A stretch of 64,000 nt of DNA from an uncultured Bacilli bacterium (GTDB taxonomy: Bacteria; Bacillota_I; Bacilli_A; RF39; UBA660). The notes below the pieces were generated by a model, which was not told where the DNA came from, searched no databases, and was given only the letters and a program-made list of their open reading frames with translations. The translations under genes and the position numbers were made by a program. Shown one piece after another: positions 16,285 to 57,273 of the stretch. Every line of letters starts with the position of its first letter. Positions within the stretch are counted from its first letter, which is position 1. Location: the NCBI GenBank assembly GCA_947629205.1, contig CANRCV010000004.1, positions 441 to 64,440 on the forward strand, given 5' to 3'.

Positions 16285-16719
16285 TTAAATATCTATACTA
16301 AAGAATGTAGAATCATCAGGAACAAATCCAAATTTTTTATAACAGGTATGAGCAGGAATACGAAAATTTCTACTCCATAGTTTCATAGCAGTACAATTAT
16401 GATTCTTACATATATTTTGTACGACTTCTAACATTTTGGTTGCAATGTGATGCTTACGATACTCCGGTTTTACACAAACATGATTTAAGATAGCATAGGT
16501 ATTCATATCTTCAAAAATTGTCGGTATAATAGCAATTCTTGTATGAGCAATAATTTTATCATCTAATTTTCCTACTACATATATTTGATTACGATCTTTG
16601 TATTCTTGAAAAAGTTCTATTGCTTCTTCATACTTTGTTTCTTCTTCAAAACATTCATTACATAAATCTACAATTCCTCGTATATCAGCAACTGTTGCAA
16701 TTTGAAATTCGACATTCAT
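16285..16719 (-). CDS. GNAT-family N-acetyltransferase
   Basis: 144 aa; acetyl-CoA binding-like segment (HHIATKMLEVV); RBS GAGGTG 9 nt upstream. Confidence 0.7.
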   Translation of the reverse strand: MNVEFQIATVADIRGIVDLCNECFEEETKYEEAIELFQEYKDRNQIYVVGKLDDKIIAHTRIAIIPTIFEDMNTYAILNHVCVKPEYRKHHIATKMLEVVQNICKNHNCTAMKLWSRNFRIPAHTCYKKFGFVPDDSTFFSIDI

Positions 16720-16740: not shown

Positions 16741-16772
16741 TTTAAGTTTATAACCCCCCCCCCGTGTGTCAA
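16741..16772 (-). promoter_or_regulatory. Putative sigmaA promoter of GNAT gene with poly(G) in the spacer
   Basis: Minus strand TTGACA(16772..16767)-CAC-G10-T-TATAAA(16752..16747); spacer 14 nt in the sequenced state, 17 nt if the tract were G13. Confidence 0.45.
16754..16763 (-). repeat. Homopolymeric G10 tract (C10 on + strand) in promoter spacer
   Basis: Ten consecutive C on + strand in an otherwise ~28% GC region. Confidence 0.9.
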
Positions 16773-24909: not shown

Positions 24910-25988
24910 AAAGAAAATGGATTATCCTTAGTTTCTTAATATTATTTTGTAGTGGTTGCTATGATTATACGGAAATAAATGATATGTCAATTGTTTCTGG
25001 TATTTCGATTGATTATGAAAAAGATAAGTATAACGTAGCTTTTGAAATTTTAAATACCCAAAATAAAGAAAACCAAGAAACAGATGAAAAAGTCTATGCG
25101 GCTTTTGGTAGTGGTTCTTCTCTATCGGAAGCCTTCTCCAATACTTCATTAGAACTTGCAAACTTTCCTTATATGGCGCATTTAAAAACCATCATCATTA
25201 GTGAAGAAGTGGCAAGATACCACGTAGAAGATATCATTGATTTTTTAATACGAGATAATCATATTCGTAATATTTTTTATTTAACCGTTGCAAAAGGAGG
25301 AAGTGCTTATGATATTCTAAGTAAAACTGATAAAAACAATCCGGTTGTCAGTACTGCTATTGCTAACTTAATTGATAGTGATATATATGCCAATCATATT
25401 GCATCGAATTTAAACTTTGAACAATTTGTAATGAACATTATTGATCCAAGAAAAGATACCTATGTTTCTTCGATTGAAATAAAAGATGATATTTTAAAAC
25501 TAGGACCTCTTGCTATTTTTAAATCCTATCAAATGCAAGAGTATTTAACAGAAGAAGAATCTGCAACCTTTAATGTAATGATTGGAGAATCAAAAGAAGT
25601 CCATTTTAAAGTCAGTTGTCCAAATGATGCAAGTAAATTTATTTCTTTAACGACTTTTAACAAACCAAAATCAAACGTTCAAATTGATGATAACAACGTT
25701 ACCTTAAAAACAGAGGTTGAAACACGTATTGTAGAAAACCATTGTACTATGAACTTTAAAGATAGCAACACCTATGAACAAATTGAAAAACAAATTAAAA
25801 ACCAACTCGAAAAAAACATGCAAAAAGTAATGGAAACGAGTTTAAAAAATGATAGTGATATTTTTCGCATAGAACAAATTTATTATCAAAAATACAAACA
25901 AGATACGGATTTTAAGAAACTACATTACAATTATCAAGCAAGTGCCATCATTAATAGAAATGGATTAATATTTGAGGTGAAATCATGA
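24906..25988 (+). CDS. gerAC: Spore germinant receptor C subunit lipoprotein (GerAC family)
   Basis: 360 aa; lipobox LILFCSGC; 4-nt overlap with A subunit; A-C-B order as in gerK operons. Confidence 0.75.
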   Translation: MKRKWIILSFLILFCSGCYDYTEINDMSIVSGISIDYEKDKYNVAFEILNTQNKENQETDEKVYAAFGSGSSLSEAFSNTSLELANFPYMAHLKTIIISEEVARYHVEDIIDFLIRDNHIRNIFYLTVAKGGSAYDILSKTDKNNPVVSTAIANLIDSDIYANHIASNLNFEQFVMNIIDPRKDTYVSSIEIKDDILKLGPLAIFKSYQMQEYLTEEESATFNVMIGESKEVHFKVSCPNDASKFISLTTFNKPKSNVQIDDNNVTLKTEVETRIVENHCTMNFKDSNTYEQIEKQIKNQLEKNMQKVMETSLKNDSDIFRIEQIYYQKYKQDTDFKKLHYNYQASAIINRNGLIFEVKS

Positions 25989-27022
25989 AATTAGAAAATT
26001 TTTCCGTTCATTATTTTTTAACAAGGTCCTTATTTTTAGGAATTGGATTTTCGTTAATTATTGGGGTTACCAAACAAGATAGTATTCTAGCCTTTATTAT
26101 TGGTACTTTACTCGGTTTAATCTTTATTCATCTCATGAATAAAATTCAACAAGAGAAGGGTTCGAAAACCTTAAATGAACTATTAACAGAAATGAAAGGT
26201 TTAGGTATTTTTTTACGAATTGTTTTTATTTCCTATGGTGTCATTTTGTTATGTGAAGGTTTAACGTTTATTCAATTATTTGCTAGTTCTTTTTTCTTAA
26301 TTCATACCCCTATTTGGTTTATTTCTTTACCACTCGTTCTATTATTACTTCGTATTTGTAAAAATGGTAAAACCACCACTTTTCGTGTTGCCACTTGTTT
26401 GTTTCCTATCTCTCTTTTCTTAACCATTATTTCTTTAGGAACTTTACTTGGTTATGCCAAACTGGATAATGTAAATCCCTTACTCGTAACACTACCAATC
26501 CATTTTTTAAAATCGGTATTTTATTATACAACCTTATCCGTATCTCCCTCTATTTTAATGCTTCTAACAGAAAATAATAAAAGCAATACGTTTTCTTACT
26601 TACTTGGAAGTCTTACTTTAATTTTAAAAATGTTTTTAATCATTGCCATATTAGGTCCAATACTTGCTACCATCTATCGCTTCCCAGAATACATTATTTT
26701 AAAAGAAATTAAAATTTTAGATTTTATTGAAAAAATCGAAAACGTTGTTGCTTTATCTTGGATTTTTGATGAATTTATTTATTTATCAATGGCTTCTTTA
26801 TTAGTAAAAGAATTAATTCCTAAAAAATTTAATTTTCTTCATACTTTACTTGTTATAGCTTCTTTCTTTATTGCTTTCCTATTTATAGGAAAATATTATC
26901 AAAATGAACTCAGTATTTATTATTTATTTCCTATTATTACAACTATCATTGTTCTTCTTATTCTTTTTACTTTCTTTTTCTACTTTTTTAAACAAAAGAA
27001 AAAACAAAAAATAGCAAATTAG
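25985..27022 (+). CDS. gerAB: Spore germinant receptor B subunit (GerAB, APC-superfamily permease)
   Basis: 345 aa, ~10 TM; translationally coupled to C subunit. Confidence 0.75.
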   Translation: MKLENFSVHYFLTRSLFLGIGFSLIIGVTKQDSILAFIIGTLLGLIFIHLMNKIQQEKGSKTLNELLTEMKGLGIFLRIVFISYGVILLCEGLTFIQLFASSFFLIHTPIWFISLPLVLLLLRICKNGKTTTFRVATCLFPISLFLTIISLGTLLGYAKLDNVNPLLVTLPIHFLKSVFYYTTLSVSPSILMLLTENNKSNTFSYLLGSLTLILKMFLIIAILGPILATIYRFPEYIILKEIKILDFIEKIENVVALSWIFDEFIYLSMASLLVKELIPKKFNFLHTLLVIASFFIAFLFIGKYYQNELSIYYLFPIITTIIVLLILFTFFFYFFKQKKKQKIAN

Positions 27023-27035
27023 TTATTTTTTGTTT

Positions 27036-28943
27036 TTATTTGTTTGGAGAAAGGACAATACGGAAGCCATTGTTGTTATGTGCTTCACCACCCATGTTAA
27101 CAAAGGCAAAGACACCAGCACCTGCACCATTTTCAACGGCACCGCCACGAACGAACCAAGGATAGGCACAAATAAACCAGGATTCATCTGCATACCAAAA
27201 GTTAATATTTCTTGGTTGAACTTTATCACTATAAATTTTTTGAACAAATGGTCCTAATTCTCCAGTTGCATCTCCTAGTATTCTTCGATTATATTGATTT
27301 CGATTTGTTCCATAATCATAAATATCATAATATTTAAAATAATCTGTTTCTTCACTAGTTTTAAATGGAATATCTTCTAAAGTAAAGCCACTTTCATAAA
27401 ATGTAAAACCACTATCATCTGTATTTTTCATTGCTCCCATTACATATTCCCAGGCACCTCCACTCATGTCATATACTCCAGTATAATTTTTAGTAGTACT
27501 TGCAACACTACTATCTGGATTTGTATAATTTATTGTATTATTTCCGTCTTGTAATGGTAGTTTATTCTCATAGTTATTGTAAGCATTAAATCCAACAATT
27601 GATTCTTCTGTTGCTGCATATCCTGTTACAAATCCAAGATTATTATTGTTTCTTACCTCTTTACATACTCCATTTTCACAAGTTCCATATTTAGAATGTG
27701 ATAAATATGCAACTGCTCCCCATTCTGTATTTTTCATTAAATGACTATCTAATTCTCTTTGATAATTATAACTCGTATTAAAAGCATTTTTAATATTTAT
27801 ATATCTCCAACTATATACATTTGGCTTTATTACTACTTTTGTTTTATCCACTACATTTGTTTTTTCTTTATTACTACTATTAAATGTAGAAGCATCTGCA
27901 CCTTTATATCCAGTTTCAAACTTTCCTACCCAAAATCCATTTGTATCAAATGCAGTAAATGCTGATGGTGTCATCCATTTATCTACTGCACATTCTCCAT
28001 TCTCTCCACTTGGTGGTGTTATACATTCTATTGTATTATCTACTGTATCATAGATTCCAAATTCTATTTCTATTTCTTGCGATTTTTCTTCATATTCATC
28101 TTGTGAAAGGCTATTATATTCTCCCATATTAAAGATTTTGTATTTATATTTTGGTATCCATACAAAATAACTTTCTATATTCTCTTCTTTTATAGTTCCA
28201 TCTTCTTCTATTATTCCATCATCTTTTAATATGACTGCATTCGCCCACTCTTTCTTAGAATAATCATACCATTCTTCTTCTATATTTGCTTTGGTTACTG
28301 TTCCATCATCTTCATTTATTTTTACTGGTATTAAATTATCTTTTATTACTGGATCTGCTCCATTTAATGTATCATCTGTATATACTTTTGCTAGTGTGTT
28401 TAATGTAGCATTGACTACTACCTTACTTTCAAAGATTTTATTCATGGATTCTTCATCTTCTACTGTTACATGTTCATCCATCCATAGTTTTAAACTATAT
28501 TCTTTACTTTCTTTTCCATTTAGTATTCCTGTTGCTAGTTCATATCCTTTTTTATATTTTTCTAATGTTGTTTCTTTTAAACTATTTAATATTCTTTTGG
28601 TATTACTATTTAATTGTACTGCTATATATTGACTATCTAAAGTTGTATTATTTGTTATACCTAAGTTTACTGTATAGTTAATACTTGTATCACATGTATT
28701 TTCTACTTTAAAAGTAAATGGTGTTAATTCTTTTGCTTCTTCATCTGTTATTGGGTATGCTTTTTCTAAATGAATAGCATCACTTTCATTTTCAAGAATC
28801 AAACTTAAACAATCACTTTGAATTTGATTCATACCTTGTTGTTCTGCAGTAGACGTCCACCATGCAAAACTAGAACCTATCATTACAATTACTGTAAAGA
28901 GCATTCCTACTACTAAATATTTTTTCTTTTTACTTTTTTCCAT
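27036..28943 (-). CDS. Secreted TasA/camelysin-like N-terminal module fused to C-terminal FGE-sulfatase (SUMF1-like) domain
   Basis: 635 aa; signal anchor then SSFAWWTSTAEQ (SipW-type motif, cf. TasA GGTWAAFND); N-domain paralogous to 53369..54088; C-terminal YDMSGGAWEYV...RGGAV...NNNGFRIVL matches FGE-sulfatase domain ends (YDMSGNVWEW...RGGSW...NIGFRCV). Confidence 0.7.
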   Translation of the reverse strand: MEKSKKKKYLVVGMLFTVIVMIGSSFAWWTSTAEQQGMNQIQSDCLSLILENESDAIHLEKAYPITDEEAKELTPFTFKVENTCDTSINYTVNLGITNNTTLDSQYIAVQLNSNTKRILNSLKETTLEKYKKGYELATGILNGKESKEYSLKLWMDEHVTVEDEESMNKIFESKVVVNATLNTLAKVYTDDTLNGADPVIKDNLIPVKINEDDGTVTKANIEEEWYDYSKKEWANAVILKDDGIIEEDGTIKEENIESYFVWIPKYKYKIFNMGEYNSLSQDEYEEKSQEIEIEFGIYDTVDNTIECITPPSGENGECAVDKWMTPSAFTAFDTNGFWVGKFETGYKGADASTFNSSNKEKTNVVDKTKVVIKPNVYSWRYINIKNAFNTSYNYQRELDSHLMKNTEWGAVAYLSHSKYGTCENGVCKEVRNNNNLGFVTGYAATEESIVGFNAYNNYENKLPLQDGNNTINYTNPDSSVASTTKNYTGVYDMSGGAWEYVMGAMKNTDDSGFTFYESGFTLEDIPFKTSEETDYFKYYDIYDYGTNRNQYNRRILGDATGELGPFVQKIYSDKVQPRNINFWYADESWFICAYPWFVRGGAVENGAGAGVFAFVNMGGEAHNNNGFRIVLSPNK

Positions 28944-29000
28944 ATTATCAATTCTCCTATAATTCTAATTTTATTCTAAAAAATAGGGTTTGAATTGTCT

Positions 29001-29041
29001 ATGACATAGATGACATACAATTTAAAAGTTAAATATGACAT
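29001..29041. promoter_or_regulatory. Three ATGACAT direct repeats in divergent intergenic region (candidate operator)
   Basis: ATGACAT at 29001, 29010 and 29035 between divergent TasA-FGE gene and XRE ORF. Confidence 0.3.
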
Positions 29042-29065: not shown

Positions 29066-29269
29066 ATGTTAAAAGAATATAGAATTAAAAGAGGATATAG
29101 TTTAGAAAAATTAGCAGAATTATGTGAAATATCTTGAAGAAATTTACAAAGAATTGAAAATGGAAAAGCAAATGTGGCTAAATTTGAAACCATAAAAAAA
29201 TTACTTTTTGTTTTAAAAGTAGAAGATAAAGATATTTTAAAATTTATAAAAGAAATAGAAAAAGAATGA
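29066..29269 (+). pseudogene. XRE-family HTH regulator interrupted by in-frame TGA at codon 24
   Basis: GAGGG RBS; MLKEYRIKRGYSLEKLAELCEIS-TGA-RNLQRIENGKANVAKFETIKKLLFVLKVEDKDILKFIKEIEKE-TGA; helix-turn-helix continues through the stop. Confidence 0.55.
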
Positions 29270-29290: not shown

Positions 29291-32200
29291 TTAAAATAAA
29301 CTTAATTGACTTGTTTCTGGCATTCCATTAAAGATACCTAAAGTACGCATTTTTTCAATAGTTGATTGATTTACTTTTCCTCGATTACTAAAATCTTCTA
29401 CACTATAGAAAGGTTTTTCTTTTCTTTCTTCCATGATTTTAGTTGCAACAGCATCTCCAAGACCATCTAAACTACTAAATGGTAAGATTAATGCATTTTC
29501 ATCTTTTACCATAACAAAATCTTTTCCTTGACTCTTTTCAATATCAATCATTTTAAAAGATATACCACGAGCTGTTGCTTCTAAAGCTAGTTTTAAAGTT
29601 TCTAATAAAGATTCATCTTTCTTGGTAGTATCAAATCCTTTGGATTGAATTTCAAGTATCTTAGCTTTAATAGCATCATAGCCTTTTACCATACATTCGG
29701 CATCGAAATCAGTAAATCTTGTAGAAAAATACGTACAATAATAGACTAAAGGATTATGAACTTTATACCAAGCAATACGAAAAGCACTAGTTACATACGC
29801 TGCTGCATGGGCTTTTGGGAACATGTATTTTATTTTTTGACAAGAAGAAATATACCAATCGGGAATATTGTATTCTTTTAAGGTTTTTACATGTTCTGCC
29901 CATGTATCTGGCTCTTTACTGGCTTTTCCTTTACGAACAAATTCCATAATTTTAAAAGCTTTTAAAGCTGGAACTCCCTTGTTCATTAACTCAACCATAA
30001 TATCATCACGACATCCAATAACATCTTTAAATGGACAAATATTTTTTTGTATAAGTTCTTGAGCATTACCAAGCCATACATTTTCTCCATGAGCAAGACC
30101 AGATATTTTAACAAGTTCAGCAAATGTGGTTGGTTTGGCATCTTTAACCAATTGAATGGTAAATGGTGTACCAAATTCTGGAACCCCTAAAGTTCCCGTA
30201 TCACACATAATTTGTTCTTTACTAACTCCTAGTGATTTTGTTCCTTTAAATAAATCCATCGTTGCTTTATCATCCAGTGGAACTTTTGTTACATCATCTC
30301 CTGTTAAATCTTGAATCATTCTTAACTGAGTTGGATCGGTATGTCCTAAAATATCTAGTTTTAATACATCAGCATCAATGGCATGATAATCAAAATGCGT
30401 TGTTCTCCAATTGCTCGTTGGATCTTCTGCTGGAAATTGATAAGGTGTAAAATCTAAGACATCCATATAATCAGGGATAACAACAATTCCTCCTGGATGT
30501 TGTCCAGTCGTTCTTTTACATCCCGTACATCCTTTTGCTAATCGTTCAATTTCAATATTTCTTAAAATAATTCCCTTATTTTCACAATACCCTTTTACAT
30601 ATCCAAATGCTGTTTTTTCAGCAACAGTTCCTATAGTTCCAGCACGATACACATTATCGACTCCAAATAAAACTTTGGTATATTCATGAGCACTTGCTTG
30701 GTTTAAATCAGAGAAATTTAAATCAATATCTGGTACTTTATCGGCGTTAAATCCAAGGAAAGTAGCAAAGGGAATATCATGTCCATCTTTGGCCATAATA
30801 CTACCACAATTTGGGCATTTTTTATCTGGTAAATCAAATCCACAAGAATAGTTAACCCCAAAAGGATTTCCTTCTTCATCATTAAAAATACTTAATTTAC
30901 AGTTTGGACAACGATAATGAGCTGGCAAACTATTAACCTCCGTAATTCCCATCATATTGGCAACAAAAGAAGAACCAACACTACCACGAGATCCAACTAA
31001 GAATCCTTCATCATTAGAGTGTTTTACTAGCTTTTGCGCAATCAAATAAATAACATCATAATTGGCTCCAATAATACCTCCTAGTTTTTTTAAAGCTAGT
31101 TTATCTAACTCTTCATCGGTTGCTTTTTCTTCTAAATGTTTTTTAACCATATCCTTAACGGCATCTTTTCCTTTTAATATGGTTTCATGTATAAGAGCAT
31201 AAGCTTTTGCTTCTTCTTTTTCTTCCATTTTACAAGCATCTATTAAAGCATCACCATATAATTCTTTAGCCAAACGTTCTTCTATATTGATAGGAAGAGG
31301 GCTTCCATATAACAAATCTGCTTTATGATACACTAATTCGGTCATTGTTTCGACTGAATTTGGGATTCTAGGAGCAAAAGGTTTTTCGGTATTAATAATA
31401 ACCTCTATTTCTTCACATAAATCTTTTATTTTATTAGGATTATCTACAATAATTTCTTTTCGTGTTTCTTCATCTAAAAAGGCAAAATCTTCCATCATTT
31501 CTTCTGTTGTTTTTAAATATTGATTAGGAATTTCAATTCCTTTTCGATTTAAAGGATGTAGTTTTCCATTAAACTTTTGATTAATAATAATTTCACGATA
31601 AATTTTATCTTCTTTTTTTAAGTTATGAACATCCCCAGTAACAACAACCGGTTTACCAGCTTCTTTGGCTACTCTTATAATTCTTTTTAAATATTCTTGG
31701 GCTTCTAAAAGAGAAGAAAATTTTTCTCCTGGACCAATTAAATGAGAAAAAGCACTAATGGGTTGAACCTCAATATAATCATAGAAATTCATCATATTTA
31801 CTAATTCTTCATCTTCTTTTCCTGCTGCTTTATCAAATATTTCTCCATTAATACAACCAGATCCTATTAACAAACCTTCTCTTGCTTCAATAATATCTTT
31901 TCTAGGTATTTTTGGTTGTTCATTTTTATATAAATATTTGGTATTCGCAAGAGATACAATTTTAAATAAATTTTTAAGTCCTTCTCTATTTTTAGCAATC
32001 ATGGTAGCATGAAAAGGATAAGCAAATCGTACTAAATTTTCTTGATCGATATTCGAAAATAAATCATCGGTTGTTGTAATATTTTGATCATATAAAACTT
32101 TACACATTTTATAAAAAGCTAGAGCTGTTCCTTCTGCATCATAATCTGCTCGATGGTGTTTATCTTCATCCCATGGAACATCTAATCGTTTGGTTAGGGT

Positions 32201-36786: not shown

Positions 36787-37917
36787 TTATTTTCCTAAAT
36801 ATGTAATTCTTGCATATCCATTTCCAGAATTTCCAACCATTGTATTTTGTGTTCCATCATGTTTGGGCATAACCTCTTTCCCGGATTTCATTTCCGTATT
36901 TGTAAAAACAAGTCCGGAATAATGAATAGAATCTCCAGTATGTTGAATGTTATTTTCAACAGATTCTTGTTTTATGGCATTACATCCCTCATATCCAGAA
37001 ATAAAGGATGAACCACCTGAGGCTGAGGTTGCATTTGTAATTCCTTCACTACGACCACCATAATAGCCTCCTCCAGCACCAGCAACACCACAATCGCCAT
37101 TACCAACACTACCTGATCCAGCACATTGGCCATCTCCAACCCCACTTTGTCCTTTACCAAAAGCATAACCAGTTGTTTGATTGATTGCTGATTTTGTTCC
37201 AACTAAATCAGCAGATAAGCCACCTCCTGCTCCTGGAGCGTAACTCCAGCTAGCTCCTCCACCACCTGCTGCAACCATAATTCTAGATTTTAAACTAGCA
37301 AAAGAGTCCCACAAACCATTTACAAGACGAATGTCGGTGGCTCCTCCTCCACCACCACTACTTTCATCATCTGCTTTATCAGGAACACCATTACCACCAC
37401 CATTATATCCACCAAGAGATTCTACTCTTTTACTAGCATTTGCACCAGCACCACCTACATAAAGATATAATGTTTGCTCTTTTTGTAAGCTTATTTCACC
37501 TTTGGTATATGCACCATTTCCTCCATCATTATAAGACACACCTTGATAAAGAGATTTTCCACCTTCAGCTCCCCATAATTCTATTTTATATTTTCCTTGT
37601 AATGGTACTGTAAATGATTGTTCACTTCCTGTATAATCAAATGTCCATTCTGTTCCTTCTTTTATAATAAAATTAATGCTACATGTCGTTGGACTCTTTT
37701 TTAGACTTGATACAAATAATCCCCATCTCTCTGTATCCCATTCTCCAATGGCATCATTATCACATTCTACAATTATATCTCCATAGTTTCCTTTTTGTGG
37801 AACGGTATTTGTTGTTTCTCCATTTATTTTCAAAGCAATGATATTTACATCGTTTTTTAAACTAAAATCAGGTACAACGCCTTTTATAACATCAAAACTT
37901 TTTTCTGTTTTATACAT
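36787..37917 (-). CDS. Phase-variable surface protein with ALK/LTK-like glycine-rich domain; annotated ORF is the out-of-frame body of a longer gene
   Basis: 376 aa ORF; no RBS before its Met; reading frame open upstream through the G10 tract; Gly-rich region GGGYYGGRSEGITNATSASGGSSFISG resembles ALK GRD GGGGYIGGNAASNND...DGVSFIS (Pfam Gly_rich). Confidence 0.7.
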   Translation of the reverse strand: MYKTEKSFDVIKGVVPDFSLKNDVNIIALKINGETTNTVPQKGNYGDIIVECDNDAIGEWDTERWGLFVSSLKKSPTTCSINFIIKEGTEWTFDYTGSEQSFTVPLQGKYKIELWGAEGGKSLYQGVSYNDGGNGAYTKGEISLQKEQTLYLYVGGAGANASKRVESLGGYNGGGNGVPDKADDESSGGGGGATDIRLVNGLWDSFASLKSRIMVAAGGGGASWSYAPGAGGGLSADLVGTKSAINQTTGYAFGKGQSGVGDGQCAGSGSVGNGDCGVAGAGGGYYGGRSEGITNATSASGGSSFISGYEGCNAIKQESVENNIQHTGDSIHYSGLVFTNTEMKSGKEVMPKHDGTQNTMVGNSGNGYARITYLGK

Positions 37918-38035
37918 AGCAAAAGTATGGTATAGTGTTATACCACCAATTAATAAAATAATTCCTATAATTGTACTAATTAAAATTTGTTTTTGTTTTT
38001 TATTTTTGATAAATCTTTCTAATCTAGGTTTGTGT

Positions 38036-38098
38036 TTATCTAATATACCCCCCCCCCAGACTAGACTCTAGAGTTGGGAGGTTTTTATTTTTCTTCAT
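38036..38098 (-). other. Leader ORF ending just after the G10 tract (OFF-state product of the phase-variable gene)
   Basis: GGAGGAAG RBS + ATG 38098; encodes MKKNKNLPTLESSLGGGYIR-stop; a 9-G allele would fuse it in frame to ...ILDKHKPRLERFIKNKKQKQILISTIIGIILLIGGITLYHTFA-MYKTEKSF (TM anchor). Confidence 0.7.
38048..38057 (-). repeat. Homopolymeric G10 tract (C10 on + strand) inside 5' coding region
   Basis: Ten consecutive C at 38048..38057; frame analysis shows G9 (or G12) gives an in-frame full-length protein. Confidence 0.9.
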
Positions 38099-38123
38099 TT
38101 TTTCTTCCTCCTACTATACTTTT

Positions 38124-38152
38124 ATTATAAACGAATTTCTTATTCTTGAAAA
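38124..38152 (-). promoter_or_regulatory. SigmaA-type promoter of phase-variable gene copy A
   Basis: Minus strand TTTTCA(38152..38147)-17 nt-TATAAT(38129..38124); identical in copy B. Confidence 0.5.
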
Positions 38153-38181
38153 GTTTTTTTCATAGTAATCCCTATTCTTCC

Positions 38182-38229
38182 TTTGACAATTAAACTGAAA
38201 TTTCATCATTTTTCAGTTTAATTGTCAAA
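38182..38229. repeat. Perfect palindromic element (19-bp stem, 10-nt loop), copy 2; likely terminator of upstream paralog
   Basis: tttgacaattaaactgaaa-tttcatcatt-tttcagtttaattgtcaaa; core and loop shared with 22081..22118. Confidence 0.75.
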
Positions 38230-38234
38230 TACTT

Positions 38235-39371
38235 TTACTGATTTTCATTTATAAATATTCTATAAGGATTTTGTTGAGTTCCATTACCACTTTGAAATAA
38301 TACTTTTGATTTAAGATAGAAAGACGGATAAATTTTAGTATTACTATAATATCCAGCATGAAAGTTCCATAATTGGCCTGTTTCATCCATGTACCATGCA
38401 TCTGGATTCCCAGAGATCGTTGTTGTCAAAAACCATTGTTTGTTCTTGCTAAATATCCAATTATTTATTACACATGAGCTATTATCACTCTCATTATTCC
38501 ATAGTTTTAAAGATTGTTGCATACATTGTGTTCTAGTTTTTAAAGCTGATCCGCTTGTTGCATATCCATAATCACTTGCATATATTAATCCAATTTTTGT
38601 ATTAGTTGATTTAGAATAACCATCACGAACACTATTTCCACGTTCTGCTTTATAAAATTCAGTTACGGTACTTAAATTGGTTTCCCCTAAATACCATTTT
38701 GCAATATCAATATACGTTTGATATGATTTTATACTACCCCAAAATTCTTCATTTAAAATATTTGTATTTAATTCGCTACTAATCCAATTATTTTGTTGTA
38801 ATTCTGGATGTCCATACCAAGAAGCTTCACTGTAGTTAACATATTTAATTAATTTTACTCTATCTTCATAAATTCCATTCTCACTTGATTGAGTAGGTAT
38901 TATACCTATAATTCGATATAAATTGTTTTCACTACATTCTCCATTTTCTTCTAAACATACATAGTTATTAGGATTAGCACCTATATATCGATAGTCCGTT
39001 TTAGCACTTTCACCAGTTTGATCAGTAGCTTCGTGTGTTTGCACTATTAATCCACTTGCTCCATCTGCAACATTTGTTACTTTTGATTTTAAATAAGTAG
39101 AAAATATTGGAGCATTAAAATCAATGGTACATTTAATTCTACTTTGATTATTGCTGTTTTTTAATTTTAAAGACCATGTTGTATCATCCCAATCTGCTTC
39201 TACTCCACCATCACATTTTATATCTTTCTTAGTAAATCCTTCATTTTGATTAGGAAAAGAAACATCACTTGTTTTTACACCATTTATACTAAAAGCAAGT
39301 GTTACATCTCCACTACTAAAATCAGGCACAACACCTTTTATAACATTAAAAGACTTTTCCATTTTATACAT
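38235..39371 (-). CDS. Phase-variable surface protein paralog (divergent C-terminal domain); annotated ORF is out-of-frame body
   Basis: 378 aa; first ~85 aa homologous to 36787..37917 product (MYK.EKSF.VIKGVVPDFS...EWD..W); C-terminal Trp/Tyr-rich domain ending GNGTQQNPYRI; same upstream architecture. Confidence 0.7.
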   Translation of the reverse strand: MYKMEKSFNVIKGVVPDFSSGDVTLAFSINGVKTSDVSFPNQNEGFTKKDIKCDGGVEADWDDTTWSLKLKNSNNQSRIKCTIDFNAPIFSTYLKSKVTNVADGASGLIVQTHEATDQTGESAKTDYRYIGANPNNYVCLEENGECSENNLYRIIGIIPTQSSENGIYEDRVKLIKYVNYSEASWYGHPELQQNNWISSELNTNILNEEFWGSIKSYQTYIDIAKWYLGETNLSTVTEFYKAERGNSVRDGYSKSTNTKIGLIYASDYGYATSGSALKTRTQCMQQSLKLWNNESDNSSCVINNWIFSKNKQWFLTTTISGNPDAWYMDETGQLWNFHAGYYSNTKIYPSFYLKSKVLFQSGNGTQQNPYRIFINENQ

Positions 39372-39486
39372 AGCAAAAGTGCGGTATAAAGTTATACCAC
39401 CAATTAGTACTATGATTCCTACTATTGTACTAATTAAAATTTGTTTTTGTTTTTTATTTTTAATAAATCTTTCTAATCTAGGTTTA

Positions 39487-39549
39487 TTATTTAATATACC
39501 CCCCCCCCAGACTAGATTTGCTGGTTGGGAGGTTTTTATTTTTCTTCAT
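39487..39549 (-). other. Leader ORF ending after G10 tract, copy B
   Basis: ATG 39549; MKKNKNLPTSKSSLGGGYIK-stop; G9 allele fuses to ...ILNNKPRLERFIKNKKQKQILISTIVGIIVLIGGITLYRTFA-MYKMEKSF. Confidence 0.7.
39499..39508 (-). repeat. Homopolymeric G10 tract (C10 on + strand) inside 5' coding region, copy B
   Basis: Ten consecutive C at 39499..39508; same -1 requirement for in-frame fusion as copy A. Confidence 0.9.
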
Positions 39550-47097: not shown

Positions 47098-47568
47098 TTA
47101 ACTAGAGCTACTATTAAACATATTACCGCTATTTACACTACTTTCACCATTACAGTTTTCAGAAGCCGTTGTTCCTTCTACTGCACTATCTCCATTTGCT
47201 CCTTTTTCTCCAGATATAGTATATTTTCCATTACTAATCCAGAATGTATAAGTAGGATTTTTACCATTGTTAGGGTTTGATACTAAAACACTTCCGGTAT
47301 AGTCATCCTTTTTTCCTTTTGTATACAATCCTTCATTATATAAATATTCTACAGAAAAACAAGCATTTCCTGTTATCATATGCAATTGATAAGCAGCCAT
47401 TGCAGACTCGATTAATTCATTACCTTCTGTTGCTAAAACATCTCTTTTTCCTTTTTCCAAAAAAGAAAAGACATTTTTAGAAGCCATTAAAAGAATAACG
47501 GCTAAAATAACGATTACTGCTAATAATTCAATTAAAGTAAAACCATTTTTATTCTTAACTATCTTCAT
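47098..47568 (-). CDS. comGC: Type IV (pseudo)pilin, ComGC-like major pseudopilin
   Basis: Start set to MKIVKNKNG|FTLIELLAVIVILAVI (class III prepilin signal, Glu at +5) with AAGGA RBS; 156 aa. Confidence 0.75.
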   Translation of the reverse strand: MKIVKNKNGFTLIELLAVIVILAVILLMASKNVFSFLEKGKRDVLATEGNELIESAMAAYQLHMITGNACFSVEYLYNEGLYTKGKKDDYTGSVLVSNPNNGKNPTYTFWISNGKYTISGEKGANGDSAVEGTTASENCNGESSVNSGNMFNSSSS

Positions 47569-47637
47569 ACAAGTTACCATCCTTGTCTATTATCAATTTC
47601 ATTATACAATAGATAAAAGAAGGTAGTCAATCAAAAA

Positions 47638-53368: not shown

Positions 53369-54088
53369 TTAACTTGCTGCTGTAGGAGTTGTATCCTTTG
53401 AAACATTGACTTTATTTTCATCTGTACTAGTAGCATTTATATTAGTACCTTCTTCAATTTGAGTAGCGACTGCTACAACTGCAATACTTGCATTAAATGA
53501 TTTTCCATTAATGGCTGTTGTTGCAGCTGAATCAATCCAAAGTCTTAGTTCATAAGTAACAGATTCTCCAGCTTTTACACTACTTGTTGTTTCATCTTTT
53601 TTACCTTTTAACTTTCCAGTATCTAATTGATAAGATTGTTTAATTTGGTTTTTATTTTGAAAATCATCTAAATTAGTATTTTTTTTACCATTCGTTTTTA
53701 AATTTTGTTTTGATTTAACAGCACTATCTACTTTATTAATAGAGTAATCAATATATTGTTCATCTAAATAGTTATTACTTGAATTATTTAATTGATTTAA
53801 ATAAAGGGTATAACTTGCATCAATATTACAATTATTGGTAAGGGTAAATGTATAGGGGATTTTATTTAAGCCTTTATTGTCTTCTACTGGATACGTATTA
53901 TCCAAATTAATATTAGGACTTATACCTTCAAAAGCCACAGAAAAGCAACCAGAGGTAATTACATTATCTGTTGTTTGTTCTGCCGTTGCCTTCCAAAGTG
54001 CATAACTACTTCCTAAAAACATCGTCATAACCATAAGTATAGCTATTACTGCTAAAGATAAACGATATCCAAAACGCATATATATCAC
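53369..54088 (-). CDS. TasA/camelysin (peptidase M73)-family secreted protein with SipW-type signal
   Basis: 239 aa; ...LGSSYALWKATAEQ...NVITSGCFSV...YTFTLTNNC...GKSFNASIAVVAVATQ parallels CalY/TasA (GGTFAYFSD...NTFAAGTLDL...GNSIKLQFSFEATQ); paralog of N-domain of 27036..28943. Confidence 0.65.
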   Translation of the reverse strand: MIYMRFGYRLSLAVIAILMVMTMFLGSSYALWKATAEQTTDNVITSGCFSVAFEGISPNINLDNTYPVEDNKGLNKIPYTFTLTNNCNIDASYTLYLNQLNNSSNNYLDEQYIDYSINKVDSAVKSKQNLKTNGKKNTNLDDFQNKNQIKQSYQLDTGKLKGKKDETTSSVKAGESVTYELRLWIDSAATTAINGKSFNASIAVVAVATQIEEGTNINATSTDENKVNVSKDTTPTAAS

Positions 54089-54145
54089 CCTATTTTTCTA
54101 TTATCTATTTCTTATTATAGCCGATAAATCGTCATTTGAAAAGTC

Positions 54146-55156
54146 CTAATTTAAATTTTCTAATGCATTTACAGCATCTTGTAAGGTAGAAACAGCAATA
54201 ATTTCTAAATTTAAATGCTTTTTTTCTTTAATTTCCATAGCTTCTTCATAGTTTTCTTCTGGACATAAAAATACATCCGCTTTGTTTTTTTCTGCTCCTA
54301 ATAATTTATATTTAATACCACCAATTTCTCCAACGGTACCATATTCATCAATCGTTCCTGTTCCAACAATCAATTTTCCTTTCGTGATATCTTCCTTTGT
54401 AATAGCGTTATAGATAGCAAGTGAGGTCATTAATCCTCCACTTGAACCACTTTCACTTTCTTTGGTTTCAATACTTACTTTGGGATTGGTTTCATATTCA
54501 AATTTATTCACCATAGCAATTCCTACTTTTAAAGAATCTTCTAGTTCATAAATAGTAGCATAACACTTTCTTTCTTCTTCCCCTCTTTTGACTTTAAAAT
54601 GTACTGTATCTCCTACTTTTAAGGAATTAACATACGTTTTTAAATCATCTAAATCTCTAAATTCTTGATTATCCATACTTAAAATAACATCACCCATTTC
54701 TAAATCGGTATTTGCTTGTTTATCAATATAGATAACGGTATGATAAATATTTTCTATATGAATTTCTTTATTAGCCAGACGAAAAGCACTTAATGTAGCA
54801 TTATCTAATCCCTCTTCTAAGTACAAACGATCACGATATAAACTTTCATCTAAACTTTCATCATCTAATGTAATACTATCGGTTTTTATTAAATCCCAAT
54901 TAGGAAGCAAAAAGGATAAAAGCACAAATGGAATATTGCCATTCATAGCAGAAACATAAGATAAAGCAAGAGTTCCTTTTTGTTCATACGCATCTTCTAC
55001 TTTTACTCTTGTTTCTAAATCAACGATATCTCCTGGACGATAAACGACATAAGGAAGCTTATAAAAAACCAAAAACAAATAAAGAACAATCCCTATTAAA
55101 AATTTATAATTTTCTTTTAAAAGTTTTTTTCCTTTTTCATATACTTTAGTAATCAT
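54146..55156 (-). CDS. ylbL: YlbL/SepM-family PDZ domain protein with Lon-like (S16) protease domain
   Basis: 336 aa; N-terminal TM, PDZ, C-terminal Lon protease-like segment (SGSSGGLMTSLAIY...KLLGA). Confidence 0.75.
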   Translation of the reverse strand: MITKVYEKGKKLLKENYKFLIGIVLYLFLVFYKLPYVVYRPGDIVDLETRVKVEDAYEQKGTLALSYVSAMNGNIPFVLLSFLLPNWDLIKTDSITLDDESLDESLYRDRLYLEEGLDNATLSAFRLANKEIHIENIYHTVIYIDKQANTDLEMGDVILSMDNQEFRDLDDLKTYVNSLKVGDTVHFKVKRGEEERKCYATIYELEDSLKVGIAMVNKFEYETNPKVSIETKESESGSSGGLMTSLAIYNAITKEDITKGKLIVGTGTIDEYGTVGEIGGIKYKLLGAEKNKADVFLCPEENYEEAMEIKEKKHLNLEIIAVSTLQDAVNALENLN

Positions 55157-55195
55157 GCTATCACCAATTTAATTATAGCAAAGGAAGAAGCGTTT

Positions 55196-56104
55196 ATGAA
55201 AAAAAGTTTAAAAGAACAAGAAATTATTTTTATTATTTTACTTTTTATTGTCCTTTTATTTAAAAAGAATATGGTATTTAAAACTTGTATTTTACAAGGT
55301 TGTTTTATTTTTTTTGAAAACGTTTTTCCTTTTTTATTTCCTATGTTTTTAATAAATGATTTATTAATGAATTATCATTTTGATGTTTTTATTACCTATA
55401 CAATTCATCCCTTATTAAAAAAACTATTTCATTTTTCTCCTATTGTATCTTCTATATTTATTTTATCACTATTTTCAGGAACTCCTACCAATGCCTATCT
55501 TATTACCAATTTAGTAAAACAAAAAGCCCTTAGTAAGAAAGATGCATGTATCACATTAAGTTATTCTTTCTTTCTAAATCCTTTATTTTTATATAGTACT
55601 TTTTTAATGTTATTTCAAAGTACTTGGATCAGTATAAAATTAATTGGTATTACTTATGGTCTTAATTTTTTATTTGCTTTTTTCTTTCGTTTTTACCCTT
55701 ATGAACAAACAACCATTCAAAAAAGAGAAAGTCAAAAATTTTCTCTTTGTTTAACCAACAGTTTAAAAAAAACAAGTAATACTTTACTACTCGTTTTAGG
55801 TACTATACTCTTTTATCTTTTCGTATGTGAAGCCTTTTCCATTCTTTTCAAAAATTCAATTGTTAATTGTATAGGAAATGGAATTTTAGAAGCAACGGGT
55901 GGTTTATTCAAATTAAAAACTTTAAACTTTTCGATGAAAGGAAAAGAAATTCTTGCTTTATTTTTTGTTTCTTTTGGAGGATTTAGTATTCATAGTCAAA
56001 TTAAAAATATTATTGATGAAGAAGAAATTTCATATCGTCCTTTTTTAATCGTTCGATGTCTTCATGCTTTTTTAGCCGCACTGATTGGCTTGATAATCCC
56101 CTAA
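55196..56104 (+). CDS. Integral membrane protein, possibly YlbJ-like (nucleoside-recognition/Gate domain)
   Basis: 302 aa, ~8 TM; neighbours ylbL as ylbJ does in Bacillus; weak call. Confidence 0.4.
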   Translation: MKKSLKEQEIIFIILLFIVLLFKKNMVFKTCILQGCFIFFENVFPFLFPMFLINDLLMNYHFDVFITYTIHPLLKKLFHFSPIVSSIFILSLFSGTPTNAYLITNLVKQKALSKKDACITLSYSFFLNPLFLYSTFLMLFQSTWISIKLIGITYGLNFLFAFFFRFYPYEQTTIQKRESQKFSLCLTNSLKKTSNTLLLVLGTILFYLFVCEAFSILFKNSIVNCIGNGILEATGGLFKLKTLNFSMKGKEILALFFVSFGGFSIHSQIKNIIDEEEISYRPFLIVRCLHAFLAALIGLIIP

Positions 56105-56662
56105 AAATTGTTTTTCTAAAAAAGGATTTTCTCCTTGTAAATCTTTTTTCTCTCCTAGATAGAAAAATTCTAAGTCATCAATTGTATTTTTCGATTTACT
56201 ACTTACAATAACGGGAATTGTAAACTTGACATAGTAAAAATCTGCTGTATCTTCTACTGTATTTGAATACGTATAAGAAACACATTGGATACCAAATTTA
56301 GTCTTCGCTGTTTGTTTTTCCAAATTCCATTTTTCTGTTCCATTTTTATTTTGATACGTTAAAGTGGATTCTGTTACTAAAAGAGTAGCTGTTTCATTAT
56401 TTTGATAGGTAAATGTTAATTGTAATTGATTTTGATTACTTCCCGTATCTTGGATACCAATTAATTTTTTTTCTAAGAAATCTTGTTCAATATTTTTTAA
56501 AATAACCGCTCTTGTTTGTTGATTATTGCGATTATAATCAATATTATTTTCACTATTACGAATATCTACCAATAAACGAAATAAAAACATAACAATAATG
56601 GTAATTAAAGCAATACTAATAATTAATTCAGTTAGTGTAAATCCTTTTTGATTCAAATTCAT
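56072..56662 (-). CDS. Type IV pseudopilin (minor, ComGD/GspH-like)
   Basis: 196 aa; MNLNQKG|FTLTELIISIALITIIV class III signal; 33-nt convergent overlap with + gene. Confidence 0.65.
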   Translation of the reverse strand: MNLNQKGFTLTELIISIALITIIVMFLFRLLVDIRNSENNIDYNRNNQQTRAVILKNIEQDFLEKKLIGIQDTGSNQNQLQLTFTYQNNETATLLVTESTLTYQNKNGTEKWNLEKQTAKTKFGIQCVSYTYSNTVEDTADFYYVKFTIPVIVSSKSKNTIDDLEFFYLGEKKDLQGENPFLEKQFLGDYQANQCG

Positions 56663-57273
56663 GTTAATTCCCCCAAACTAAGTGTTGTATAAAAGTACAA
56701 ACAATCGTTATTTTCATCTGTACAAGCTTCTCCTTTTTTCGTTTCCGCAAATTCTGCAATGATACGATATCCCTCTTGCCCATTTCCCCCAATGGTTTTT
56801 AAATATTCTGCAGCTTGGGAATTCACTTGTACTAAAGCTTCACATAAACCTTTTTGATCCGTACAATCTTGTAATTCACTTAAATCATTATAAGTAAAAT
56901 ATAAATTATGAATATGTAATTCTTGATATAAATTCTCACAAAAACCTAAATTATCCTCTTCATTTAAAAATATATCTCCTCGACAACCAAAACTCGTAAT
57001 CATGGATTTAGGTTTTGTATCCTCTTCTTTATTTAAACTAGCCATTAATAAATCAACACGAAAATTTTTAAAAAATTTTTCTAAATAATAAGTACGATAT
57101 AAATAAACCGAATCATTGTATTTCAATCTTGTTTTTTCTTTTTGAATAATACCACTATAACTCGAATAAAGCATAAGTAAAGAAGCCGTCAAAACAGCAA
57201 CTACAATTAAAGTTTCTACAAATACAAATCCCTTTTTTTTCTTCATATTTTGAACGCTCCTTATTGTATTCAT
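56659..57273 (-). CDS. Type IV pseudopilin-like protein
   Basis: 204 aa; ...KKKKG|FVFVETLIVVAVL prepilin-type signal with Glu +5; 4-nt overlap with downstream pseudopilin. Confidence 0.6.
   Translation of the reverse strand: MNTIRSVQNMKKKKGFVFVETLIVVAVLTASLLMLYSSYSGIIQKEKTRLKYNDSVYLYRTYYLEKFFKNFRVDLLMASLNKEEDTKPKSMITSFGCRGDIFLNEEDNLGFCENLYQELHIHNLYFTYNDLSELQDCTDQKGLCEALVQVNSQAAEYLKTIGGNGQEGYRIIAEFAETKKGEACTDENNDCLYFYTTLSLGELT

What the first reader, a model, noticed from the sequence alone, without database searches (positions are those of the whole stretch)
27036..28943. TasA/camelysin-like module fused to an FGE-sulfatase (SUMF1-like) domain
After a signal anchor the N-terminus carries the SipW-cognate-type motif SSFAWW-TSTAEQ and a ~170-aa domain. 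That domain is homologous to the 239-aa protein at 53369..54088 through shared motifs (TAEQ, SGC, YP(V/I)(E/T)D, (Y/F)TF..N.C, Y.L.LW.D), which in turn resembles TasA/CalY. The C-terminal ~280 aa end in YDMSGGAWEYV...FVRGGAVENGAG...NNNGFRIVLSPNK. This matches the conserved core and terminus of formylglycine-generating-enzyme/SUMF1-type domains (YDMSGNVWEW, RGGSW, NIGFRCV). I do not know of a biofilm-matrix/camelysin-type module joined to an FGE-like domain. The divergent, TGA-interrupted XRE gene and the ATGACAT repeats suggest local regulation.
Basis: inference. Interest (0 to 1): 0.65.

Follow-up and report, generated by a model that had tools for sequence, protein, structure and literature searches.

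The report
Secreted lectin-fold surface protein family member
This gene encodes one member of a very large, unnamed family of exported proteins from uncultured gut Bacilli, built from a TasA-style export signal, a shared beta-sandwich module and a non-enzymatic FGE-type lectin-fold head; many of its relatives carry poly-G tracts of the kind that switch genes on and off.

Summary

Its N-module (aa 28-185) is clearly homologous to the 239-aa ORF at 53369..54088 (BLASTP 2e-22; hhalign 7.5e-42).

The C-terminal half is an FGE-subtype C-type-lectin fold, but only at family level:
- PF03781 scores below threshold for this protein (17.2 vs 23.3 bits).
- It is hit by 37 of 91 relatives; no other Pfam family is hit by more than 2.
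- The only PDB sequence hits are two FGE-fold proteins, TaqVP and PvdO.
- The FGE catalytic cysteines are absent, so it is a binding module, not an enzyme.

Likeness to TasA is confined to the signal peptide, cleavage motif and first strand. Once signal peptides are trimmed, profile similarity falls to the level of a reversed control.

The fusion is not unique. At least 5,853 unnamed homologues exist, up to 10 or more per MAG. The N-module also heads DUF285, LRR and other adhesin-type proteins.

25 of 34 G/C tracts of 8 or more bases in 907 kb lie at the 5' ends of family genes. This copy instead has a divergent XRE gene (TGG to TGA here) and conserved ATGWCAT repeats.

Most likely it is a secreted or surface ligand-binding protein.

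The parts
27036..28943 (-). Whole gene, 635 aa plus stop; one member of a large unnamed paralogous family
28863..28943 (-). Signal peptide or signal anchor, aa 1-27: a Lys-rich n-region, a 15-residue hydrophobic core, then G-S-S-F-A followed by W-W. This looks like an SPase I site (S at -3, A at -1) flanked by aromatic residues, as in TasA (T-W-A|A-F).
   Evidence: Sequence. A27 and W29 are nearly invariant in A1 and A2. hhalign register against TasA. Cleavage itself is inferred.
28389..28862 (-). N-module, aa 28-185: a beta-sandwich with a conserved Cys45/Cys84 pair. It is shared with the 239-aa ORF and with thousands of other proteins.
27939..28388 (-). Acidic middle region, aa 186-335: small beta elements including FVWIPKYKYKIF and a Cys307/Cys318 loop. 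It leads into the lectin-fold domain and forms part of the conserved C-core that also occurs without the N-module. The exact boundary with the lectin-fold domain was not determined.
27039..27938 (-). FGE-subtype C-type-lectin-fold domain, aa 336-635. Motifs: WVGKFETGY, KPNVYSWRYI, HLMKNTEWGAVAYL, YDMSGGAWEYV, VRGG, GFRIV. No catalytic Cys pair. Variable, indel-rich loops lie at about aa 443-475, 503-545 and 566-625.
   Evidence: FGE subtype of TaqVP from PMC6328139
28944..29065 (.). Divergent intergenic region with three clustered ATGWCAT repeats (29000-29041); a candidate XRE operator and promoter region
29066..29269 (+). Small XRE-family HTH gene transcribed divergently, interrupted by TGA at 29135-29137. 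The intact orthologue in L031 has Trp (TGG) at that position.
53369..54088 (-). Stand-alone N-module paralogue, 239 aa as listed. The database version, P0121, starts at the Met three codons in and is 236 aa.

Best explanation
The gene encodes an exported ligand-binding (adhesin-type) protein. It belongs to a lineage-specific multigene family of uncultured, spore-forming gut Bacilli.

Proposed mechanism, with each step marked as shown or inferred:
1. Export. A Sec-type signal peptide ends in a conserved S-(F/Y)-A|x-W site. This follows the same [S/T]-aromatic-A|x-aromatic pattern as TasA-class signals. The sequence pattern is shown; cleavage is inferred.
2. N-module. The first mature module is a roughly 155-aa, Cys-stapled beta-sandwich. 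It is always N-terminal. It occurs alone or in front of interchangeable adhesin-type domains: this C-core, DUF285, LRR, BspA-type LRR_5, Flg_new, dockerin and PKD. The distribution is shown. Its role as a common stalk, attachment or assembly module is inferred.
3. Head. The C-terminal half is an FGE-subtype C-type-lectin fold without the FGE catalytic cysteines. Its core motifs are conserved and its loops are variable and indel-rich. This is the kind of fold used as a binding head by DGR variable proteins and phage receptor-binding proteins. The fold is supported at family level; ligand binding is inferred.
4. Control. Many relatives carry a poly-G tract in the 5' coding region or the promoter spacer, which points to stochastic on/off switching. 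This copy has no poly-G tract. It sits behind a divergent XRE repressor-type gene with repeated ATGWCAT sites, and that XRE gene carries a nonsense codon here, so the copy may be derepressed. The arrangement is shown; the regulatory logic is inferred.
For: - Family size and architecture: 5,853 hits at E<=1e-3, none with a Pfam label or a name. At least 581 loci, nearly all in gut Bacilli/'Tenericutes' MAGs, with tandem arrays and 10 or more copies per MAG.
- Architectures among 117 family ORFs: N+C 58, C-core with another N-terminus 47, N-module alone or with another C-terminus 9.
- N-module: 5,846 clusters at 50% identity reach E<=1e-3, always at the N-terminus, in proteins of 170-945 aa. Fusion partners include DUF285 (14 proteins), several LRR families, LRR_5, Flg_new, dockerin and PKD.
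- FGE fold: PF03781 is the only recurrent Pfam hit, in 10 of 41 and 37 of 91 members, best E=1e-4. The C-core profile hits only TaqVP (5vf4, E=0.16) and PvdO (5hha, E=0.18) in the PDB. [quoted passage not shown]
- Structure: the AF2 model has pLDDT 79.7. Its best viral structural matches are phage proteins, including tail-fibre proteins, at TMq 0.27-0.30.
- No conserved Cys after the RGG motif.
- Variable loops mapped.
- Poly-G: 25 of 34 tracts lie at family 5' ends, P=6e-21. G9 is in frame in 3 of 3 cases and G10 out of frame in 13 of 13.
- XRE and operators are conserved in L031 and L008.
- The organism has peptidoglycan and germination genes.
Against: - No curated model passes threshold on this protein.
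- Foldseek of the full model against the PDB did not place any FGE-fold structure in the top 50.
- No ligand, no anchoring motif (no LPXTG, no lipobox) and no experimental data exist for any member.
- Signal-peptide cleavage was not tested. The conserved aromatic residues could simply mark the end of an uncleaved membrane anchor.
- This particular copy lacks a poly-G tract.
Confidence: 0.6

Rival explanations
1. Fibre-tip model. The N-module is a divergent TasA-superfamily pilin domain that polymerises by donor-strand complementation. Stand-alone N-module proteins such as the 239-aa ORF form the shaft. N-module fusions such as this protein are interchangeable, often phase-variable, tip adhesins.
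For: - The signal and N-terminus resemble TasA.
- An aromatic residue at mature position 2 (W29) is nearly invariant, as described for AbpX donor strands (bioRxiv 10.64898/2026.01.04.697558).
- The A2 profile gives weak hits to AbpX (E=0.4-0.6).
- AbpA (7ueg) and CanA (9hdi) rank 2 and 6 among structural matches of the N-module model.
- Both stand-alone and fused forms exist, with three tandem stand-alone copies in L003.
- There is no other anchoring motif.
- The mature protein is acidic, pI 4.6.
- The same preprint describes TasA-superfamily loci with predicted tip proteins of varied structure.
Against: - After trimming signal peptides, profile similarity to TasA is at control level.
- Structural matches are weak (E about 4e-3, TM about 0.3), and TasA itself is absent from the top 50.
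- No dedicated signal peptidase, TapA-like factor or anchor gene lies next to any of 79 loci.
- The stand-alone and fused genes are 24 kb apart in this window.
- No multimer model could be run.
Confidence: 0.2
2. The signal sequence is not cleaved. The protein is then a type II membrane-anchored surface receptor or adhesin, and the conserved S-Y-A-x-W motif is just the aromatic belt at the outer end of the anchor helix.
For: - AF2 models a continuous helix through aa 2-25, and through aa 3-31 in the 239-aa paralogue.
- The hydrophobic stretch plus the aromatic residues spans about 21 residues.
- The best PDB sequence hit of the A2 N-terminus is a transmembrane helix, erbB-3.
- An uncleaved anchor would explain retention without any other anchoring motif.
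Against: - Small residues at -3 and -1 (S/T and A) are conserved at 90% or more in two different leader types, S-Y-A and T-F-A. That is expected for an SPase I site, not for a plain anchor.
- The register matches the known TasA cleavage site.
Confidence: 0.25
3. One reading: a TasA/camelysin biofilm-matrix module fused to a functional FGE/SUMF1-type enzyme, for example one that modifies a sulfatase or a matrix component.
For: The FGE-like motifs are all present and co-linear. The N-terminus is TasA-like.
Against: - The FGE Cys pair (Cys336 and Cys341 in human FGE) has no counterpart. No Cys is conserved after RGG in 41 and 91 aligned relatives.
- Known FGE-fold proteins without these residues, TaqVP and PvdO, are the closest solved relatives.
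- None of the window genes annotated with Pfam here is a sulfatase, and no conserved partner gene appears in 79 loci.
- There is no Peptidase_M73 hit for this protein.
Confidence: 0.05
4. A phage-derived receptor-binding protein, or a target of a diversity-generating retroelement (DGR).
For: The best viral structural matches are phage proteins, including tail-fibre proteins. The closest solved sequence relative is a DGR variable protein.
Against: - tblastn of the C-core against 50,697 phage records finds nothing.
- Neighbouring genes are housekeeping: the gerA operon and polC here, rpoBC and others elsewhere.
- No template-repeat-like copy of the gene exists in the window, and no conserved neighbouring gene, reverse transcriptase included, recurs across the loci.
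Confidence: 0.03

Closest known systems
TasA / camelysin (Pfam PF12389 Peptidase_M73) and the wider TasA superfamily (AbpX, AbpA, CanA)
   Same: - An N-terminal signal ending in [S/T]-aromatic-Ala|x-aromatic.
- A co-linear first strand, and an 'N-L-x-N-x-(K/Y)-P' then 'F-x-(L/I)-x-N-x-(G/C)' register.
- A beta-sandwich fold whose nearest solved neighbours include AbpA and CanA.
- An acidic, secreted protein.
   Different: - No significant profile similarity beyond about 60 residues.
- No Pfam or NCBIfam hit for this protein.
- A conserved Cys pair, which the TasA alignment A3 lacks (no conserved Cys column).
- No sipW or tapA neighbourhood.
- It is used as an N-terminal module in front of large adhesin-type domains.
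FGE-subtype C-type-lectin fold binding proteins: DGR variable proteins TaqVP (5VF4), TvpA and Mtd
   Same: - They are the closest solved sequence relatives.
- The FGE-type core motifs are present without catalytic residues.
- Surface loops are variable.
- Structurally the protein resembles phage tail-fibre heads.
   Different: - There is no reverse transcriptase or template repeat. Diversity here comes from gene-family expansion and on/off switching, not targeted mutagenesis.
- The domain has large insertions.
- It is preceded by the N-module and an acidic linker.
Formylglycine-generating enzyme / SUMF1 (Pfam PF03781); PvdO
   Same: Co-linear motifs: WVGKFE, KPNVYSWRxI, HxMKNTEWGAVAYL, YDMSGGxWEYV, RGG and FRIVL. 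These give recurrent sub-threshold PF03781 hits and a PvdO hit.
   Different: - Scores are below the gathering threshold.
- The catalytic Cys pair is absent.
- The protein is extracellular, multicopy and has no sulfatase partner.
- Like PvdO, it is an FGE fold that cannot be an FGE.
Phase-variable surface-protein gene families (Neisseria Opa and PorA, Campylobacter and Mycoplasma contingency genes)
   Same: - Large paralogous family of surface proteins.
- Homopolymeric G tracts either just after the start codon or between -35-like and -10-like promoter hexamers.
- The reading-frame state follows tract length.
   Different: - The host is a lineage of uncultured gut Bacilli, and no such system for it turned up in the held literature.
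- The proteins are unrelated to those families.
- The copy in this window has no tract and uses an XRE/operator arrangement instead.

Membership tests
TasA/camelysin (Peptidase_M73, PF12389) | Match to PF12389 at or above the gathering score (22.5 bits) | tested here: not met
   There is no hit for the 635-aa or the 239-aa protein, even at E<=1, and none among 41 full-length relatives. One distant N-module protein, P0370, scores 23.0 bits but only over aa 4-62. P0410 scores 18.7 bits.
TasA/camelysin (Peptidase_M73, PF12389) | SipW-cognate class signal peptide (TIGR04088) and an adjacent sipW-type signal peptidase | tested here: not met
   No NCBIfam hit at E<=1. No SipW-like motif appears in ORFs of the window or of 82 loci; one ordinary SPase I lies near one locus. 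No conserved neighbouring gene was found. The cleavage-site pattern itself does resemble TasA's. The rest of the genome could not be searched.
TasA superfamily | Homology of the mature jelly-roll domain | tested here: inconclusive
   hhalign of A2 against the TasA alignment A3 gives E=5e-4 and probability 30% with signal peptides included. After trimming, P=0.31 against 0.16 for a reversed control. Foldseek places AbpA at rank 2 and CanA at rank 6, at E about 4e-3 to 9e-3 and TM about 0.3; TasA is not in the top 50. AbpX sequence hits have E=0.4-0.6.
TasA superfamily | Polymerisation by donor-strand complementation | not testable with these tools
FGE-sulfatase / SUMF1 (PF03781) | Match to PF03781 at or above the gathering score (23.3 bits) | tested here: not met
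   The protein scores 16.0-17.2 bits, E=0.004-0.01, over aa 473-504 only. At family level, 37 of 91 members hit below threshold with best E=1e-4, and no other family is hit by more than 2.
FGE-sulfatase / SUMF1 (PF03781) | Catalytic cysteine pair after the RGG motif (human Cys336 and Cys341) | tested here: not met
   The window sequence after VRGG is AVENGAGAGVFAFVNMGGEAHNNNGFRIVLSPNK, with no Cys. No column in the C-terminal 180 residues reaches 25% Cys in A1. The catalytic residues are as cited in PMC6328139.
FGE-subtype C-type-lectin fold | Fold similarity to FGE, TaqVP or TvpA | tested here: inconclusive
DGR variable protein | Nearby reverse transcriptase and a template repeat matching the 3' variable region | tested here: not met
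   blastn of the gene against the window finds no repeat. No conserved neighbour appears across the loci.
SSR phase-variable contingency gene | A homopolymer or other simple-sequence tract in the promoter spacer or 5' coding region | tested here: not met
   There is no G/C tract of 8 or more bases at this gene; the only ones in the window are at 16754, 38048 and 39499. The feature is met by many relatives: 25 tracts at family 5' ends.

The most novel reading that the evidence does not exclude
The N-module is a previously unrecognised bacterial branch of the TasA superfamily. Stand-alone N-module proteins would polymerise by donor-strand exchange into a surface fibre. The hundreds of N-module fusions (FGE-lectin head, DUF285, LRR and others), switched individually by poly-G tracts or by XRE repressors, would then be interchangeable fibre tips. 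That would give these uncultured gut Bacilli a combinatorial, phase-variable adhesion organelle.
Probability: 0.15. Interest if true: 0.85.

Novelty: new variant of a known kind. Interest (0 to 1): 0.55.

Why it matters
These Bacilli and 'Tenericutes' MAGs come from human and animal gut samples and are uncultured, and nothing is known about how they contact host or diet surfaces. No member of this family carries a name, and no full-length family member examined has a Pfam label. It comprises at least 5,853 clusters at 90% identity. The N-module alone is found in 5,846 clusters at 50% identity. A single genome can hold 10 or more copies, many behind what look like classical poly-G contingency switches. 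That pattern is typical of proteins under strong selection at a host or phage interface.

Three practical consequences follow:
- Recognising the head as a non-catalytic FGE-type lectin fold, and the N-module as a portable export and attachment module, gives annotators two new domain definitions.
- It gives experimentalists concrete constructs for glycan or mucin binding tests.
- It warns against annotating these genes as sulfatase-maturing enzymes or as TasA.

Tried and rejected
- Pfam and NCBIfam on the two window proteins gave only a sub-threshold FGE hit.
- Consensus sequences with X at variable positions, scanned against Pfam, gave nothing; the X residues penalise the score.
- Foldseek of the full-length model against the PDB returned mostly beta-sandwich noise at TM about 0.1.
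- The look-up of encoding contigs found no record for P0001 or P0002.
- tblastn of the C-core against phage genomes gave no match.
- DGR hypothesis: no template repeat was found.
- SipW hypothesis: a motif scan of all ORFs in the window and 82 loci found only one ordinary SPase I.
- Conserved operon partner: all-against-all clustering of neighbouring ORFs gave only housekeeping genes, each in 6 loci or fewer.
- Genetic code 4 as an explanation for the TGA in the XRE gene was rejected. TGA ends 10 of 51 genes, and no TGA lies within the ORFs analysed.
- The apparent hhalign similarity to TasA (E=5e-4) was traced to the signal peptide by trimming and by a reversed control.
- Literature searches found no description of this family or of poly-G switching in this lineage.
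Full report
**Observation**

The minus-strand ORF 27036..28943 encodes 635 aa. All quoted motifs are present:
- SSFAWWTSTAEQ, aa 24-35
- HLMKNTEWGAVAYL, aa 401-414
- YDMSGGAWEYV, aa 491-501
- FVRGGAVENGAG, aa 597-608
- NNNGFRIVLSPNK, aa 623-635

The window has 28.5% G+C. The gene lies between a gerA/gerAC/gerAB germination operon (23473-27022, +) and polC (29291-33778, -). TGA is a true stop here: 10 of 51 long ORFs end in it, and all 99 Trp codons are TGG.

**N-module**

Residues 11-160 align with the 239-aa ORF 53369..54088(-) at 34% identity, E=2e-22. Profiles built from relatives of each protein find the other at about 1e-36 and find nothing else in the window. hhalign on the mature domains gives probability 100%, E=7.5e-42.

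AlphaFold2 models have pLDDT 79.7 for the full protein and 82.0 for the 239-aa protein. Both show an N-terminal helix, a low-confidence linker and an all-beta domain. Cys45 and Cys84 are each conserved in 98% of relatives.

**Is the N-module TasA-like?**

Evidence against a full-domain relationship:
- Pfam and NCBIfam give no Peptidase_M73 or TIGR04088 hit for either window protein, nor for 41 relatives.
- hhalign of the stand-alone family (A2) against a 32-sequence TasA/CalY alignment (A3) gives probability 30%, E=5e-4. The register is sensible: GSSYA|LW against GGGTWA|AF, GCFxLxF against GTLDLxV, and NLxNaYP...FTxxNxC against dLSNLKPGD...FxLxNxGS.
- After trimming both signal peptides, the P-value is 0.31. 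The same comparison with A3 reversed gives 0.16. The signal therefore comes from the first roughly 60 residues.
- No sipW-type peptidase or other conserved partner lies near any of 79 loci.

Weaker evidence in favour:
- A distant N-module protein, P0370, reaches 23.0 bits on Peptidase_M73 (cut-off 22.5), but only over aa 4-62. P0410 scores 18.7 bits over aa 4-132.
- Foldseek of the N-module model gives only weak matches (best E=3.6e-3, TM about 0.3-0.4). The TasA-superfamily pilins AbpA (7ueg) and CanA (9hdi) rank 2 and 6, and TasA itself is absent from the top 50.
- The A2 profile weakly hits AbpX (E=0.4-0.6) over the 'SIxLxxAYP...TFTLxN' stretch.
- The AbpX preprint defines the superfamily by a jelly-roll core, a donor strand with an aromatic residue at mature position 2, and frequent linkage to a dedicated signal peptidase and tip proteins. 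W29, which would be position 2 after cleavage at Ala27, is nearly invariant here.

Verdict: the export signal and N-terminus are TasA-class-like. Membership of the TasA superfamily is possible but not shown.

**C-terminal half**

- PF03781 (FGE-sulfatase) is the only Pfam hit, below threshold: 16-17 bits against 23.3, over aa 473-504.
- At family level the signal is consistent. 10 of 41 full-length relatives and 37 of 91 C-core sequences hit PF03781 at E<0.1 (best 1e-4). No other of the 24,736 families is hit by more than 2.
- A 91-sequence C-core profile hits only two PDB sequences out of 177,635: TaqVP (5vf4, E=0.16) and PvdO (5hha, E=0.18).
[quoted passage not shown] Its CLec domain begins at residue 112, which is where the alignment starts.
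- All the FGE landmark motifs occur in order, separated by insertions. I recognised these landmarks from my own knowledge of the family.
- The catalytic cysteines that follow RGG in FGE (Cys336 and Cys341, cited) are absent. No Cys column is conserved in that region. So this is a non-catalytic FGE-type lectin fold.
- Conservation mapping shows invariant core motifs separated by variable, indel-rich loops at about aa 443-475, 503-545 and 566-625.
- Foldseek against predicted viral structures gives its best matches to phage proteins, including tail-collar fibre proteins and a crAss-like phage protein, at TMq 0.27-0.30.
- There is no sequence match to phage genomes and no DGR template repeat.

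**The fusion is not unique**

- The full-length search returned 5,853 proteins at E<=1e-3, with full-length coverage down to about 40% identity. None of the 120 listed has a Pfam label, and none carries a name beyond 'hypothetical protein'.
- In species-representative genomes there are at least 581 loci. Nearly all lie in uncultured gut 'Bacilli' or 'Tenericutes' MAGs, for example Ca. Scybalousia and Ca. Ventrenecus. Tandem arrays occur (four copies in L015), and single MAGs hold 10 or more copies.
- Among 117 family ORFs in the fetched loci, 58 have N-module plus C-core, 47 have the C-core behind a different N-terminus, and 9 have the N-module alone or with another C-terminus.
- The second leader type is a transmembrane segment followed by T-F-A-(L/M)-Y-K-x-E-K-x-F-x-V-I-x-G-x-V-P-D-F. 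It keeps the same small-aromatic-Ala|x-aromatic pattern.
- An exhaustive profile search with the N-module finds 5,846 clusters at 50% identity (3,514 at E<=1e-10). The module is always at the N-terminus, in proteins of 170-945 aa.
- The longer proteins carry DUF285 (14 of 83), several LRR families, BspA-type LRR_5, Flg_new, dockerin or PKD domains.
- The N-module is therefore a portable N-terminal unit of adhesin-type surface proteins.

**Regulation**

- In 907 kb of window plus loci there are 34 G/C runs of 8 or more bases. 25 lie within -400 to +200 nt of family gene starts, on the coding strand (binomial P=6e-21).
- The first arrangement is RBS, ATG, a conserved AACCTCCCAAC, a G tract, then the leader. 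G9 is in frame in 3 of 3 cases, and G10 is out of frame in 13 of 13.
- The second arrangement places the G tract between TTGAC-type and TAtnAT-type hexamers.
- This is the classical anatomy of contingency loci. Actual switching is inferred, not observed.
- The gene under study has no such tract. It has a divergent 67-codon XRE-type gene with TGA at codon 24.
- The orthologue upstream of a family gene in L031 is intact and has Trp (TGG) at that codon. L008 has the same arrangement.
- The intergenic regions of the three loci share repeated ATGTCAT/ATGACAT elements. In the window, three sites cluster at 29000-29041.
- If the XRE protein is a repressor, this copy would be derepressed. That is inference.

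**Mechanism and rivals**

Most likely (confidence about 0.6) this is a Sec-exported ligand-binding protein. The N-module would serve as a stalk, attachment or assembly unit, and the FGE-type lectin fold as the binding head. The family is diversified by paralogy, and many of its members carry poly-G tracts.

Rivals:
- An uncleaved membrane anchor (0.25).
- The fibre-tip, donor-strand model (0.2).
- A true FGE enzyme fused to TasA (0.05).
- Phage or DGR origin (0.03).

**Novelty**

The parts are of known kinds: an FGE-type lectin fold used as a binding head, a TasA-class signal, and SSR-type switches. The family, its N-module and its association with poly-G tracts in this lineage are not in Pfam or NCBIfam, and they were not found in the held literature.

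Noticed in passing
window 36787..38098(-) and 38235..39549(-): Two paralogous surface-protein genes. One carries an ALK/LTK glycine-rich domain (PF12810); the other has no Pfam hit. In each, the RBS and ATG are separated from the long ORF by a G10 tract (C10 on the + strand at 38048-38057 and 39499-39508), which puts the start out of frame. G9 would restore the frame. Both therefore look switched off, unless these are homopolymer assembly errors.
   Followed up: partly
loci L006, L007, L011, L014, L020, L047, L049, L050, L071, L079 and others (coordinates): A conserved 5' cassette precedes many family genes: RBS, ATG, AACCTCCCAAC, a G tract of 8-10, then TATATTAGA. G9 is in frame in 3 of 3 cases and G10 out of frame in 13 of 13. 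ORF callers produce spurious 'VWGGGIL' N-terminal extensions from these tracts, for example in P0025.
   Followed up: partly
loci L013, L018, L030, L044, L052, L058, L059, L065, L072, L074; window 16754-16763: G9-G12 tracts sit between TTGAC-type and TAtnAT-type hexamers, giving promoter-spacer-type switches. The window example lies upstream of the 144-aa ORF at 16285..16719(-), not of a family gene.
   Followed up: no
window 38036-38112(-): The conserved ACCUCCC in the leader, which is anti-Shine-Dalgarno-like, is predicted to pair with the poly-G tract in a hairpin: -20.3 kcal/mol, z=-2.3, with 5 of 200 shuffles folding as well. Its significance is unknown.
   Followed up: partly
window 29066..29269(+), TGA at 29135-29137: The XRE-family gene is inactivated by TGG to TGA, judged against the intact orthologue in L031 (87% identity). 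This could be a real nonsense mutation or a sequencing error.
   Followed up: yes
window 53369..57273; L003 6105..13707: Synteny around the stand-alone N-module gene is conserved: two pilin-like genes (one with N_methyl), a membrane protein on the opposite strand, a PDZ plus Lon_C (YlbL-like) protease, one to three N-module genes, then parE and parC.
   Followed up: partly
P0007, P0032, P0036, P0050; window 36787..39549; L003 3060-4162: A second conserved leader occurs in front of unrelated extracellular domains: a transmembrane segment followed by T-F-A-(L/M)-Y-K-x-E-K-x-F-x-V-I-x-G-x-V-P-D-F. This suggests a lineage-specific export or processing signal.
   Followed up: no
window 47098..47580(-), 56072..56662(-), 56659..57273(-): Three type IV pilin or pseudopilin-like genes. 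Two have the N_methyl motif, and no assembly ATPase lies nearby in the window.
   Followed up: no
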